A stretch of 31,825 nucleotides of DNA from Macrostomum lignano (Eukaryota): positions 1 through 31,825 of the forward strand of contig NIVC01004909.1 of assembly GCA_002269645.1 (NCBI GenBank), read 5' to 3'. The position numbers were made by a program, and so were the translations under genes. A model generated the notes under the pieces. The model worked only from the letters and a program-made list of their open reading frames with translations, was not told where the DNA came from and made no database searches. Each line of letters starts with the position of its first letter. Position 1 is the first letter of the stretch. This document shows positions 19,288 to 25,882 of this stretch, piece by piece.

Positions 19288-19455
19288 TTGCAGACCCTCT
19301 GACATTGAGACAAACTCTGTGCTACGAGCTATTTATCCAGACCTGCTTTCCATCTCTTTGTTTGAAAAAAATATATATGCTTGCTTTCACATGCGCTATG
19401 CATTTTCAATGTCTTAAGAAAACCTAAAAATAAAAATGTTTCTTTGTTTCCGAAA

Positions 19456-20523
19456 ATGGAAAAAATTTATTTCAATCCAAACCAGCCAGCGAGCTATTGC
19501 AGTTCTTCAAAACTGCAACCTGAACTGCGAAAAAGAGGCGAGCATATTGGAGTCAAGAGCATTGAGCAGTGGCTAAGTCAGCAGCCAGTACACACTCTGC
19601 ATAAGCCAGCTAGAGTACGATTTCCAAGGGCGCCAATAATAGTAAGAGCCATTGATGATCAGTGGGAGATGGATCTGGTGGAAATGATTCCATTTGCAAA
19701 GTATAATCGCGGGCATAAATACATTCTCACCTGCATTGATGTTTTGTCTAAATTTGCAATGGCCAGAGCACTGAAGTCTAAGAGCGCGGCAGAAGTGAAA
19801 TCTGCGTTTGAGAGCATGCTGAAGAGCTCAAAGCGGCAGCCGCGCACTGTCCGCACAGATCAGGGAAAGGAGTTTGTCAACGCAATTTTTCGCCAGTTCT
19901 GCATAGACCGGGGGATTCTGGCGTTTCCAACTAGCAGTGAGCACAAAGCAGCCATAATTGAAAGATGGAATCGAACTTTAAAAAGCAAGATGTGGCGTTA
20001 CTTTACTCACAACAGCACTCTACAATGGCTTGATGTGCTGCCTAAACTGGTCAAGTCCTATAACAATACTTTCCACAGAAGCATCAAGACTACACCAATG
20101 AATGTCAGCAAAGCAAACGAGACTGAAGTGTGGATGAACCTTTATGATGGGAAAGCGATTGAGACAGTTGAGAAACTGAGAAAACCGAAGTTCTGTGAAA
20201 ACCAATCAGTGCGGATTTCCAATGCACCCAGACTCTTCAGGAAGGGATACAAGGCGAACTGGAGCGAAGAGGTGTACACCATAGTGTCTAGGGCACCAAA
20301 GCATTATCCCTACATGTACAGGATTCGAGACATGAAGGGGGAAGACATAAGAGGCCTCTTCCACGAGCATGAGCTGCAAGCTGTTCCGGACTCGCAGCGG
20401 CTGTATGTAATCGAGAAGGTTCTGAAGACTGAGAAGCGGAAGGGTAAGATCCGATATCTCGTCAAGTGGGCCGGCTACAAGTCCACTGACTGGGTGGATG
20501 AGAAGGACTTAAGAAAAGTGTAA
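19456..20523 (+). CDS. Polinton retroviral-type (rve) DDE integrase with C-terminal chromodomain
   Basis: Catalytic motifs WEMDLV, RTDQGKEF and IERWNRTLK; chromodomain YVIEKVL...YLVKWAGY...WVDEKDL. Intact; probable start is the ATG at 19456. Confidence 0.95.
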   Translation: MEKIYFNPNQPASYCSSSKLQPELRKRGEHIGVKSIEQWLSQQPVHTLHKPARVRFPRAPIIVRAIDDQWEMDLVEMIPFAKYNRGHKYILTCIDVLSKFAMARALKSKSAAEVKSAFESMLKSSKRQPRTVRTDQGKEFVNAIFRQFCIDRGILAFPTSSEHKAAIIERWNRTLKSKMWRYFTHNSTLQWLDVLPKLVKSYNNTFHRSIKTTPMNVSKANETEVWMNLYDGKAIETVEKLRKPKFCENQSVRISNAPRLFRKGYKANWSEEVYTIVSRAPKHYPYMYRIRDMKGEDIRGLFHEHELQAVPDSQRLYVIEKVLKTEKRKGKIRYLVKWAGYKSTDWVDEKDLRKV

Positions 20524-20553
20524 GATACCGACATTGTGCAGCCATTCCCAACT

Positions 20554-21363
20554 ATGAGAAGCATCATCATTTGTAGCGAAAATGCTGAAGGTACTCCTAG
20601 TGACTTTCATTTTCACCTGCCTTCATCTATTTACTTGGATCGAAATGTGGACTATGAGGCAGGTCTGGCTGAAATCCATCTGCCTGCTGCATGGTTCAAT
20701 GTTGACGAGCCTTACTGCTTCACTGTCTCAGATGGAAGAGAGCATGAGGCCCTGGTTCTTCAACCCGGACGCTTTGCTAGAGTGGAGGAACTGGTGGAAC
20801 GCCTGAATGAGCTGCTGGCCAACTCTGAGTCACTGTTCTTCGATGCAATGAGCGAAAGGGAGTCTGAAATGGAAGCTGATGAGTCCGGTTTAATGGGGCG
20901 GAGCAGCGCTAGAGATATTGGCATAAAGTTTGAAATCCAAGAGTTGAGAACAGTAGTGCTCAACAACACGGCTCGAGCAGAATTGTTCCTTCCATCAAGT
21001 AAAATTCTGCAGTGGCTGGGATTCGGAAACCAGCCTGTGAAGATCCCACCCGGACGGCAAGTGTCACTCTGCTGCATCGGTTGTCCGTCCACCAACCTGA
21101 TCAACTTGCACTGCAGCATTGTGGAGCGAACAAACTGGAACTGGAACTCCGTGCTGCGAACTGTGAGCATGTCATCCGATGTCGAATGGGGCAGCTACAT
21201 GAGCAAAGTGTTTAAGAAAGCAATTTTCTTCCCGATTCAGAAAGCTAATTTTCTACATGGCATTAGATTTCAACTGCGTGACATCTTTGGCTACTCACTG
21301 ACTGCTCGGAGCAGCAGCCCTGTTCTGCTCACAGTTCATATTCGGGAAAGGCTAATACAATGA
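20554..21363 (+). CDS. Polinton minor capsid (penton-like) protein
   Basis: N-terminal signature SENAEGTPSDFHFHLPSSIYLDRNVDYEAGLAEIHLPAAWFN; C-terminal CSIVE...VLRTV...FFPI...GIRFQLRDIFG...LTVHIR. Intact. Confidence 0.8.
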   Translation: MRSIIICSENAEGTPSDFHFHLPSSIYLDRNVDYEAGLAEIHLPAAWFNVDEPYCFTVSDGREHEALVLQPGRFARVEELVERLNELLANSESLFFDAMSERESEMEADESGLMGRSSARDIGIKFEIQELRTVVLNNTARAELFLPSSKILQWLGFGNQPVKIPPGRQVSLCCIGCPSTNLINLHCSIVERTNWNWNSVLRTVSMSSDVEWGSYMSKVFKKAIFFPIQKANFLHGIRFQLRDIFGYSLTARSSSPVLLTVHIRERLIQ

Positions 21364-21770
21364 ACTACCAACAGCTGATTCGTCAGTATTCAGGGACTCT
21401 GGCAGGAAGCCAAAAGCCGGCGCTCTATGGCTGTGGGAGTTTTCCAGGAATCATGACTTACCAGCCTCCTCCAGAAGCTTCCACAAAGTCAATATCGCTA
21501 TCAAAGCCAGCCCATACCACCGCCAGCGGTAGCAGCAGCAACAGCAGAAGCAATAGAAACAGACCAAAGCAGCGACTAGTCAAACAGGGCAGTAAGAAGC
21601 AGACAAAAAAGAAGAAAAAGAGTAAGACGGAGAAATCACCGAAAAGAAGCCAGTCAGGGCGAAATAAACCTAAGAAAGGGAGGTCTAAAACTCAAAGCAA
21701 GAAAACAGGCAAAGGAAAGCAAAAAGTGAGCAAAAAGACTGTGAAACGTGTTCTGGACTCGCTCTCATAG
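21360..21770 (+). CDS. Lys/Arg/Ser-rich basic protein, putative DNA-condensing core protein
   Basis: Highly basic C-terminal two-thirds; lies between the minor and major capsid genes; LYGC-G fits the adenain (M/L/I)xGx-G cleavage consensus. Confidence 0.65.
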   Translation: MNYQQLIRQYSGTLAGSQKPALYGCGSFPGIMTYQPPPEASTKSISLSKPAHTTASGSSSNSRSNRNRPKQRLVKQGSKKQTKKKKKSKTEKSPKRSQSGRNKPKKGRSKTQSKKTGKGKQKVSKKTVKRVLDSLS

Positions 21771-21772
21771 CA

Positions 21773-24281: not shown

Positions 24282-24334
24282 GAATAACAGCCGAGATTTT
24301 GGCATTTGTTCTATATTCTGCAACACTAATGATA

Positions 24335-24646
24335 ATGGAAACCTTTGACTCACATGAAAGTTTGTTTGATGTTCTCGCGTCACCGAAATATTCCATCAGC
24401 TTTAAACGTCTGTTGATCAGAGCGGGTCCAAAAGCCGTACGTGAATTTCTCATTGAGGCCTGCTACAACCTATTGCAAAACACTCTGTCGTTCTCACTCA
24501 CTGAAAAGGCAGCGCTGGTGAAGCAAAAGCAAATAATCCGCAAAATTTCTACACATAGAAGAACTGCGGATCTGCTAAATACGGGTTTTATCAAAATTCT
24601 CTACATTCTAATAAAGCTAGTGAAGAAAAAGAAGCAAAATGAATAA
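24335..24646 (+). CDS. Conserved small Polinton protein with a cationic amphipathic C-terminus
   Basis: FLIEACYNLLQNTLSFS...KAALVKQKQIIRKI resembles the conserved ORF found next to Polinton ATPases; it ends GFIKILYILIKLVKKKKQNE. Confidence 0.65.
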   Translation: METFDSHESLFDVLASPKYSISFKRLLIRAGPKAVREFLIEACYNLLQNTLSFSLTEKAALVKQKQIIRKISTHRRTADLLNTGFIKILYILIKLVKKKKQNE

Positions 24647-25297
24647 GTTCTCAGAAATGGTTCTGATCCCCAAGTCAGAGTACGACATGCTCACACAGAA
24701 TTTGAAGCCAGTCGAGTCTGAAATGGACACTGCTGTGAGATATGCGCAGAGGAAATGCAATGATATTTTGCTTGCCGAGGATTGCCCAGACGATGTGAAA
24801 GCTGCCATGTACCATGATGCGATGAAGAGTTTGCTGGCCAAGCGCAAGCGGACTGGAAAGGATGGTGCGGTACCTGCGAGTGATGCAAAGATGCTGAAAA
24901 CAGATATTGCACAAGCAGCTGGGGGGAAAAGATCACCCAATCCGTGCCGCAGAAGTTTAAAGCGAGAGCCCGCAGTCTATGGGCCATCCTATCTGGCAAT
25001 CCCTCTCTGATTCAGGTGTCCGAAAATGGCGAGGCGCAAATTTCTGGGAAGACAATACCCTCCTCAAACATCCTGGATTTGTTTCACAGTGCGGTGAGGG
25101 ATTCGAAATGTGCCAACGAGCCGGTAGGCTGGAGTGAGTTTGTCTCATTGCTTCAAGACAAAAAGCTTAACATCCCAGCTTCGGCTATAGGAAAGTCAGT
25201 AAGGCAGCTAATTTCTAAACCGGCTGTTTCTCCAGAGGCCACCCCTGCACATCATACAGTTAAGGGATTCGGGAGTGGGAGAGCCTGGCTACACTGA
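24639..25297 (+). CDS. Conserved Polinton hypothetical protein; one frameshift
   Basis: MVLIP...DDVKAAMY, then after a one-base deletion in the G/A run near 24925: VPQKFKARARSLW...GEAQISGKTIPSSNILDL...PVGWSEFVSLL...NIP...IG. Confidence 0.7.
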
Positions 25298-25370
25298 GCA
25301 GGAAAAAAACTATTTAAGAAGGGGAACTGAGTCGGCTTCCCGACATCTTGCGTCTTGAAACCATCCGATC

Positions 25371-25813
25371 ATGAACTATATTGACTTCCAAGGCTTCCCA
25401 CGCGAGAGATCGAGCAGAGATTTCGTTGTGAAGGAGCTGGCCATTGCCCAAGTCCGGGCTGGCAGTTACCATATCACTCATCACGTGTACGCCTCTCCGT
25501 TCTCATGGGAGAGAATCTCACCTGAGATGCAAGTGCATTACAGAAAGCTCTCAAAGAATTTGCATCATTTCAAGTGGACAGATGGATCTCGACCGTACAT
25601 GCATTTGGCAATGACATTCTAAACATTGCTTACGGTCCCACCTGGACAAGCGGGGTGAAAAGTCCATCTTTCTGACTGAGCTGCTTGGCAGACAGGTGTA
25701 CAACCTAGAGGATCTGGGATCACCTTTGATTCAAGCATCTGATACTGGTTGCGCAGTGAAAAATGTATTACTGTACTACAACTGGCTGAAACCGAAGTTC
25801 TGTATCAACTTAA
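25371..25813 (+). CDS. Polinton-associated protein with DEDD/DnaQ-exonuclease-like N-terminus; frameshifted
   Basis: IDFQGF...FVVKELA...PFSW...HHFKWTDGSRPY, then after two one-base deletions KRGEKSIFL...VYNLEDLGSP...CAVKNVLLYYNW. The fold assignment is tentative and the end coordinate is inferred. Confidence 0.5.
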
Positions 25814-25882
25814 GAAGCGAGGTGTGCCCGCACCACTCAAAAGCTCGCAAAGACAGTACCACAGGCAGAAAGGACTCTCTAA

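What the first reader, a model, noticed from the sequence alone, without database searches (positions are those of the whole stretch)
19413..25816. YTTAAGAA box at a near-constant distance upstream of six element genes: candidate cognate site for the element TBP
The motif sits 43-74 bp before the ATGs of the integrase, minor capsid, ATPase, small lytic-like, exonuclease-like and TBP-like genes. That spacing fits a TATA-position element plus a short 5' UTR. A rough estimate gives about one chance TTAAGAA per 13 kb strand, whereas I found seven, six of them at this position. Two are embedded in the last codons of the upstream gene (DLRKV, CLRKK), and the motif is retained in the diverged copy near 12312. 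PC4 and pPolB instead have canonical TATA boxes, suggesting early genes on host TBP and later genes on an altered-specificity TBP. The motif also contains the TAAG core of baculovirus late promoters.
Basis: partly seen in the sequence, partly recalled or inferred. Interest (0 to 1): 0.8.

Follow-up and report, generated by a model that had tools for sequence, protein, structure and literature searches.

The report
Polinton's own TATA variant and TBP
Virus-like Polinton elements in a flatworm genome carry a lineage-specific 8-base variant of the TATA box in front of most capsid, packaging and integrase genes, and each lineage also encodes its own TATA-binding-like protein, which likely reads that box to switch these genes on, much as some herpesviruses do.

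Summary
The motif is real. In the window's decayed Polinton an 8-mer Y-H-TAAGAA lies 43-149 nt before 8 of 10 plus-strand genes. It persists in subfamilies down to 40% capsid identity, in non-coding DNA and different reading frames; codon-preserving re-draws never matched it (0 of 2000). Other Polinton lineages of the genome do not lack TBP: each encodes a diverged TBP-like protein and has its own box at equivalent places (TATAAGYA; TAYAAATA), and metagenome relatives have TATAAACR. Out-of-frame ATGs are at chance level up to +29 but depleted from +36 (1 vs 9.7), which fits a TATA position, not a baculovirus-like initiator. PC4 and pPolB have ordinary TATA boxes. The TBP-like protein folds as TBP, keeps the TFIIB-binding acidic loop and has altered DNA-contact residues. 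Best reading (0.6): a late promoter read by the element's TBP with host Pol II, like herpesvirus vTBP/TATT. Binding and start sites are untested, no TBP-less control was found, wild-type TBP can bind single variants, and one residue-to-base prediction failed.

The parts
18438..18445 (+). canonical TATA box TATATAAG before the PC4-like gene (early-type, inferred)
   Evidence: TATAWAWR also before PC4 in 6 of 6 copies checked
18523..19287 (+). PC4-like gene
   Evidence: Pfam PC4 E 3.6e-6
19413..19420 (+). box CTTAAGAA, intergenic, 43 nt before integrase
   Evidence: kept while flanks diverge in A, C, B, B2, D, E
19456..20523 (+). retroviral-type integrase with chromodomain
   Evidence: Pfam rve, Chromo
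20508..20515 (+). box CTTAAGAA in last integrase codons, 46 nt before minor capsid gene
   Evidence: TTA-AGA kept in all 8 representatives incl. E; chance per copy 0.02-0.08
20554..21363 (+). putative minor capsid gene
   Evidence: position and tblastn to other lineages; no Pfam hit; name inferred
21211..21218 (+). box TTTAAGAA, 149 nt before the basic gene
   Evidence: kept in E as TATAAGAA with different amino acids
21360..21770 (+). small basic (core-like) protein gene
   Evidence: function inferred from composition
21669..21676 (+). box CCTAAGAA inside the basic gene, 104 nt before the major capsid gene
   Evidence: CTTAAGAA in B, CATAAGAA in E at 107-110 nt
21773..23053 (+). major capsid gene, frameshifted in this copy
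23077..23595 (+). adenain-like protease gene, no box
   Evidence: Pfam Peptidase_C5 E 1.4e-4; no box in 8 of 8 representatives
23571..23578 (+). box CTTAAGAA, 58 nt before ATPase
   Evidence: in E CATAAGAG in another reading frame
23629..24348 (+). packaging ATPase gene
   Evidence: Walker A in sequence; weak P-loop Pfam hits; tblastn
24277..24284 (+). box CTTAAGAA over the ATPase stop, 52 nt before s1
   Evidence: no Pfam hit
24639..25330 (+). gene s2, broken in this copy, no box
25313..25320 (+). box TTTAAGAA, 58 nt before exonuclease-like gene
   Evidence: TATAAGAA/CATAAGAA in B, D, E
25809..25816 (+). box CTTAAGAA inside the exonuclease-like gene, 74 nt before the TBP-like gene
   Evidence: chance per copy 0.02; E has TATAAAAG instead
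25883..26444 (+). TBP-like gene, frameshifted in this copy
   Evidence: Pfam TBP E 6e-9
27160..30916 (-). protein-primed DNA polymerase B gene in pieces
   Evidence: Pfam DNA_pol_B_2 E 4.5e-17
30951..30958 (-). TATA-like TATAAATT 42 nt before the pPolB start
12311..12318 (+). box in a separate integrase/minor-capsid fragment of a related subfamily

Best explanation
The 8-mer is a conserved, lineage-specific TATA-box variant in front of most Polinton structural and integrase genes, and it likely acts as a late promoter that the element's own TBP-like protein binds, likely recruiting host TFIIB and RNA polymerase II to start about 30-35 nt downstream. Shown: the box, its position, its conservation beyond coding needs, a different uniform box in each lineage (YHTAAGAR; TWTAAGYA; TAYAAATA; TATAAACR), a TBP-like gene in each lineage, ordinary TATA boxes before PC4 and pPolB. 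Inferred: start position (upstream-ATG pattern), promoter activity, early/late order, binding by the element TBP, use of host TFIIB (acidic stirrup kept, no polymerase or TFIIB gene seen in the element). In lineages A/B the TBP-like gene itself sits behind the box, which would give positive feedback; in E and L095 it has an ordinary TATA.
For: Positional p 8e-7 and 0 of 2000 codon re-draws in each of 6 elements. Box kept in intergenic DNA whose flanks diverged and in different reading frames. De novo, the top upstream 6-mers in each of 9 representatives are that lineage's box, and the cross-table is diagonal: A 8/10, B 8/10, E 7/10, F 6/9, G 4/10, H 4/10, J 5/9, M 8/8, N 7/8 for the own box, 0-1 for the others; own box at most 0 on the minus strand. 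Prediction written beforehand (note) that families M and N would have a family-specific box if TBP-positive was met. Metagenome relatives have TATAAACR at the same genes and one contig holds a TBP-like gene. 53 of 54 short leaders are 34 nt or longer; out-of-frame ATGs 16 vs 16.4 expected at +7..+29, 1 vs 9.7 from +36 (P 0.001), 6 vs 11.4 from +33 (P 0.054). TBP fold pLDDT 91, TM about 0.8 to solved TBPs. Host TBP is canonical at all 19 positions checked, while all element proteins change N117 and V119 to S/T and most change V80 and F74; the herpesvirus vTBP also turns the equivalents of V80 and V119 polar (PMC12529657 Table 1).
Against: No binding, start-site or timing data. No TBP-less Polinton was found, so co-occurrence has no negative control. 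Wild-type TBP has been crystallised on the single variants G(-26), T(-30) and C(-25) (PDB titles 1qn5, 1qna, 1qn3), and the M/N box TATAAATA is a plain consensus TATA. The predicted link 'no proline at 149 = C at position 1' failed in M/N (T in 15 of 16 matches). No initiator peak at +23..+36. Long leaders (basic gene in lineage 1, integrase in M/N) hold out-of-frame ATGs. The first intercalating phenylalanine is P in A/B and one asparagine is lost, so the protein might bind DNA poorly. The +36 cut-off and the patterns were chosen after seeing the data; lineages are related.
Confidence: 0.6

Rival explanations
1. The box is a promoter at the TATA position but host TBP reads it; it is a deliberately weak TATA variant switched on by replication or by another element protein (PC4-like, exonuclease-like), and the TBP-like protein does something else, such as sequestering host factors.
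For: Wild-type TBP binds single variants of this kind (PDB titles); M/N box is consensus TATA; residue-to-base prediction failed in M/N.
Against: CTTAAGAA stacks three departures from consensus; each lineage holds one box almost exclusively and a different one from its own early genes, which a single host TBP does not explain for four lineages in one genome; acidic TFIIB loop and DNA-face residues are conserved within lineages.
Confidence: 0.22
2. The box is an RNA-level signal (poly(A) signal of the upstream gene, or a branch/acceptor element for trans-splicing of a polycistronic RNA).
For: Many boxes lie at or near the end of the upstream gene; trans-splicing would also create a new 5' end downstream; the host is known to trans-splice (recalled).
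Against: Boxes for the basic, major capsid and TBP-like genes lie 100-400 nt inside the upstream frame, where cleavage would cut it; a normal AATAAA follows the last plus-strand gene (26470); no fixed AG or other fixed base at +23..+36; host RNA machinery would not need four lineage-specific versions.
Confidence: 0.08
3. The box is a late promoter/initiator for the RNA polymerase of a helper virus (baculovirus-like TAAG), as virophages share promoters with their giant viruses.
For: Lineages 1 and 2 both contain (A/T)TAAG; virophage precedent (search listings).
Against: M/N and metagenome lineages have TAAA; out-of-frame ATGs are tolerated up to about +34, which does not fit initiation inside the motif; splice-acceptor-like sites and an intron-like stretch point to nuclear Pol II transcripts.
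Confidence: 0.05
4. Chance plus codon constraint (Leu-Arg-Lys, stop codons, lysine-rich tails).
For: Some single sites have chance 0.2-0.45 given the amino acids; total count over the window is only modestly raised (2 of 100 shuffles).
Against: 0 of 2000 re-draws in 6 of 6 elements; intergenic copies conserved; analogous boxes of different sequence in other lineages.
Confidence: 0.02

Closest known systems
Beta/gamma-herpesvirus late transcription: viral TBP mimic (KSHV ORF24) and TATTWAA late promoters (PMC12529657, passages and Table 1 read)
   Same: Virus-encoded TBP-fold protein, minimal variant TATA box before structural genes, conventional promoters on early genes, host Pol II, polar substitutions on the DNA face.
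   Different: ORF24 is a multi-domain protein in a six-protein complex that binds Pol II directly and is predicted not to use TFIIB; the Polinton protein is a bare ~190 aa saddle that keeps the acidic TFIIB loop; box sequence differs by lineage; function here is untested.
Polintons/Mavericks/adintoviruses (PMC8502044 and bioRxiv 697771, passages read)
   Same: pPolB, integrase, ATPase, protease, two capsid genes, terminal inverted repeats; a 'TBP' label appears in figure legends for some MELD viruses.
   Different: The word 'promoter' does not occur in either text; no shared upstream box or TBP-box pairing is described there. Figures and supplements not seen.
TBP homologues of large DNA viruses (PMC7221094; poxvirus VITF-3, PMC12917281; passages read)
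   Same: Diverged viral TBP fold (BFVD hits).
   Different: Those work with a viral TFIIB and/or viral RNA polymerase and mostly lose the acidic TFIIB residues; the Polinton has neither enzyme and keeps them.
Baculovirus late promoter (A/G/T)TAAG and virophage promoters shared with giant viruses (recalled; search listings only)
   Same: Short motif before most structural genes; TAAG core in two lineages.
   Different: TAAG is the start site for a viral polymerase; here the inferred start lies 30-35 nt downstream and two lineages lack TAAG.

Membership tests
Polinton/Maverick (adintovirus) | protein-primed DNA polymerase B | tested here: met
   Pfam DNA_pol_B_2 E 4.5e-17; gene in pieces
Polinton/Maverick (adintovirus) | retroviral-type integrase | tested here: met
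   Pfam rve E 2.5e-16
Polinton/Maverick (adintovirus) | adenain-like protease and packaging ATPase | tested here: met
   Peptidase_C5 E 1.4e-4, at cut-off; ATPase only weak P-loop hits
Polinton/Maverick (adintovirus) | major and minor capsid genes | tested here: inconclusive
   No Pfam hit; 68 homologues incl. unnamed lancelet and fish proteins; capsid identity inferred from layout, fold not predicted
Polinton/Maverick (adintovirus) | terminal inverted repeats | tested here: met
   135-nt inverted repeat in the 99% identical copy C106, matching the window's left end; right end lost in the window; target-site duplication not tested
TBP family | two-repeat saddle fold | tested here: met
   AF2 pLDDT 91; 44 PDB matches E<=0.001, top 39 shown are TBPs, TM about 0.8
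TBP family | four intercalating Phe and two Asn | tested here: not met
   Lineage A: P, Y, F, F; N and T; position 57 aligns unsurely outside A/B
TBP family | acidic TFIIB-binding stirrup | tested here: met
   E/D144 and E146 in 16 of 16 element proteins aligned
TBP family | binds a TATA-type box | not testable with these tools
   needs EMSA/SELEX
Herpesvirus vTBP/TATT late system | viral TBP plus variant TATA before structural genes | tested here: met
   (sequence level only)
Herpesvirus vTBP/TATT late system | large ORF24-type protein with Pol II-binding domain and five partner factors | tested here: not met
   187-aa stand-alone protein; partner homologues were not searched for specifically
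Herpesvirus vTBP/TATT late system | dependence on genome replication, late timing | not testable with these tools
   no time-resolved RNA data
Baculovirus-type TAAG late promoter | initiation within TAAG | tested here: not met
   indirect: out-of-frame ATGs tolerated to about +34, depleted beyond
Baculovirus-type TAAG late promoter | LEF-type viral RNA polymerase available | tested here: inconclusive
   LEF-8 search of the genome blank, control rang nowhere

The most novel reading that the evidence does not exclude
A broad group of animal Polintons runs its own early/late transcription programme: each lineage encodes a minimal TBP whose DNA face has co-evolved with a private TATA variant, giving several mutually orthogonal TBP-promoter pairs on host Pol II inside one genome, a convergent and far smaller version of the herpesvirus vTBP system.
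Probability: 0.4. Interest if true: 0.88.

Novelty: new variant of a known kind. Interest (0 to 1): 0.76.

Why it matters
How Polintons/Mavericks switch on their capsid genes, and whether they behave as autonomous viruses, is open. A conserved box before structural genes plus an element-encoded TBP gives a concrete, cheap test (5' end mapping, EMSA with natural proteins from four lineages against four boxes). If true, it shows a staged viral programme in animal Polintons without a helper virus, a second origin of the 'viral TBP + variant TATA' strategy, and natural altered-specificity TBPs that inform TBP-DNA recognition and could serve as orthogonal promoters. The box also helps to annotate starts in these elements.

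Tried and rejected
RNA evidence: no holder on record as RNA; 4 guessed-RNA runs laid as contigs cover the element but cannot show starts; no spliced-leader-like loose end among the 24 shown, 87 not shown: uninformative. TBP-negative control: families F-L first looked TBP-less by tblastn but an HMM found diverged TBP-like frames in 9 of the regions (profile match 97.9%; PDB hits all TBP); that reading was dropped. Copies C4948 and C2158 lack the frame, apparently by truncation, and are no control. IMG/VR scans with capsid queries found nothing. The metagenome scan gave 15 loci, of which 5 (L093-L097) held usable upstream regions; L098-L102 are distant and were not used. LEF-8 search blank and uninformative. 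Host histone H3 promoters: no TATA-like 8-mer within 140 nt in 8 distinct upstream regions, so no host baseline. Single-sequence fold of the lineage-2 protein failed (pLDDT 39). TBP tree: compatible with one element clade (94/85, unstarred, long-branch warning), monophyly not tested, L095 left out by a script slip. Proline-149/position-1 prediction failed in M/N. The primary TBP-variant crystallography paper is not held; residue-to-base assignments other than Pro/T1 (PMC12529657) are recalled. No homologue of the lineage-2 TBP-like protein at E<=0.001.
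Full report
Setting. The window holds a decayed Polinton/Maverick from about 18220 to 30960: PC4-like gene, integrase, putative minor capsid, basic protein, major capsid, adenain-like protease, ATPase, two small genes (s1, s2), an exonuclease-like gene and a TBP-like gene on the plus strand, and pPolB on the minus strand. 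Named homologues of the TBP-like protein come from the flatworm Macrostomum lignano. The genome holds over a hundred related copies.

Observation. TTAAGAA occurs 12 times in the window against 5.07 expected (2 of 100 shuffles reach 12). The seventh is 149 nt before the basic gene, and a CCTAAGAA lies 104 nt before the major capsid gene. Protease and s2, which abut or overlap the gene before them, have none. PC4 has TATATAAG and pPolB TATAAATT.

Conservation in the same lineage. I fetched 47 genomic regions with elements and used one to a few per family. In subfamilies A, C, B, B2, D (capsid 85-100% identical) and E (40%) the box stands before the same genes: before integrase it is kept in intergenic DNA whose flanks differ (7 of 8 representatives; the eighth has CTTAAAAA); before the ATPase it is read as TTA-AGA in A/B and CAT-AAG in E; before the basic gene as F-K-K in A and Y-K-N in E. 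Re-drawing synonymous codons and shuffling intergenic DNA gave means of 1.0-1.3 starts with a box against 8 of 10 (C130, C906, C878) and 6 of 9 (C114b, integrase left out because of its intron); 0 of 2000 re-draws reached the observed value in each. Some single sites are not improbable alone (0.2-0.45). The pattern was chosen after seeing the data.

Other lineages. Families F-L (capsid about 30% to A) first looked TBP-less. They carry a sister box, TATAAG(C/T)A, before dUTPase, PLA2-like, minor capsid, s1, basic and major capsid genes (4 of 10 and 5 of 10 starts, 0 of 2000 re-draws). An HMM then found a diverged TBP-like frame in them (97.9% profile match; PDB hits are TBPs). I wrote down a prediction before opening two more families, M and N: they have a TBP-like frame (22-23 bits; 92% profile match; no Pfam hit) and one uniform box, TA(T/C)AAATA, before 8 of 8 and 7 of 8 starts, ATAAATA 10 times on the plus strand and never on the minus strand. 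Of 15 metagenome loci, 5 had usable upstream DNA; all show TATAAAC(A/G) before minor capsid, basic, major capsid or exonuclease-like genes, and L095 also holds a TBP-like gene (Pfam E 1.5e-16). De novo, the commonest upstream 6-mers in each of 9 representatives belong to that lineage's box, and no lineage uses another's at more than 1 start. The shared frame is an 8-mer, Y-W-T-A-A-R-H-A, the length of a TBP footprint (recalled).

Where does transcription start? Over 118 starts in 17 elements, 85 had a box within 170 nt (a 30-nt floor was imposed for some lineages there). With the floor lowered to 9 nt except for the metagenome loci, 53 of 54 leaders up to 100 nt were 34 nt or longer (starts chosen by homology). 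Out-of-frame ATGs occur at chance level at +7..+29 (16 vs 16.4) and are depleted beyond (+33 on: 6 vs 11.4, P 0.054; +36 on: 1 vs 9.7, P 0.001, cut-off chosen afterwards). This fits an mRNA that begins about 30-35 nt after the box, i.e. a TATA position, and not initiation inside TAAG. No initiator or fixed AG shows at +23..+36. Long leaders do hold out-of-frame ATGs. Public contigs gave no start information.

The protein. A copy with an open frame (187 aa) folds as a TBP saddle (pLDDT 91; TM about 0.8 to archaeal and eukaryotic TBPs). Against the DNA-contact list of yeast TBP (PMC12529657 Table 1; Arabidopsis numbering used), host TBP is canonical. All element proteins have S/T at 117 and T/S at 119; lineages with G at box position 6 have Y74 and S/T80, those with A have F74 and I or R at 80; lineage 2 and L095 keep P149 and have N163 and a strict T-A start, lineage 1 has S/T/N149 and a C-rich start. 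The Pro-to-T1 link is stated in PMC12529657; the other base assignments are recalled. The prediction failed in M/N (N149 but T in 15 of 16), and four or five related lineages cannot show co-evolution. The acidic TFIIB loop is kept in 16 of 16, unlike most viral TBPs (about 40%, PMC7221094). The tree is compatible with a single element clade but not decisive.

Mechanism. Most likely (0.6): host TBP reads ordinary TATA boxes before PC4 and pPolB (and before the TBP-like gene in E and L095); the element TBP then binds the lineage box and, with host TFIIB and Pol II, drives capsid, core, ATPase and integrase genes; protease and s2 ride on the upstream transcript; in A/B the TBP-like gene is itself behind the box. 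All steps after 'box and gene exist' are inferred. Main rival (0.22): host TBP reads weak variants; wild-type TBP has been crystallised on G(-26), T(-30) and C(-25) variants (PDB titles) and the M/N box is a consensus TATA. RNA-processing (0.08), helper-virus (0.05) and chance (0.02) readings fit worse.

Known and new. It works like the beta/gamma-herpesvirus vTBP/TATT system but is not a member of it. A TBP label occurs in figure legends of the adintovirus papers (figures not seen), so the gene is not wholly new. Ten paper searches showed no description of a Polinton upstream box or of a TBP-box pairing; subscription journals and supplements were not seen. Papers read as passages only: PMC7221094, PMC12529657, PMC8502044, bioRxiv 697771, 10.64898/2026.10.13.758929, PMC12220804, PMC12917281; the rest as listings. 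An earlier AI note on another genome reports the same pairing (e1-8073936); it is unchecked and not counted as support.

Verdict. Observation confirmed and extended; interpretation partly supported; new variant of a known kind; interest 0.76.

Noticed in passing
L044 (C114, lineage E integrase); L061, L065, L073, L077, L110, L116: Lineage E integrase holds an intron-like GT..AG stretch of about 100 nt, and the TBP-like frames of lineages 2, M and N begin at splice-acceptor-like sites (6 of 6 checked): spliced genes in Polintons.
   Followed up: partly
L109-L120, L125-L127 (families M, N): About 10-kb TIR-bounded elements with integrase, capsids, protease, ATPase and a TBP-like gene but no pPolB: packaging-competent-looking, replication-dependent elements.
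   Followed up: partly
L061:1293-2015; L024:5381-5815: Lineage 2 carries a deoxynucleoside kinase (Pfam dNK E 3e-21), a dUTPase-like gene and a parvovirus-type phospholipase A2-like gene (E 4e-9).
   Followed up: partly
L001:8509-9586: The exonuclease-like frame overlaps the first ~330 nt of the TBP-like frame in lineages A-E.
   Followed up: no
window 12171-12552 and 14165-14599: Two fragments of a related Polinton subfamily (integrase end, minor capsid start) interrupted by other mobile DNA.
   Followed up: no
window 30960-31825; 2212-4149; 11158-11472: 15-nt satellite that cuts off the element's right end; 37-nt and 57-nt tandem arrays; a 68-nt inverted copy of the 37-nt unit at 14604.
   Followed up: no
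window 7164-10987: Host gene with a WGTHF..GG stretch resembling the MACPF/perforin signature (recalled motif, no search run).
   Followed up: no
P0031, P0019, P0029, P0034, P0011: Unnamed metagenomic TBP-like proteins; P0031 shares T117/T119 with the element proteins and may come from another Polinton.
   Followed up: partly
L093-L097: Metagenome Polintons of other hosts show two copies of TATAAACA inside the basic gene before the capsid gene in 3 of 5 contigs.
   Followed up: no
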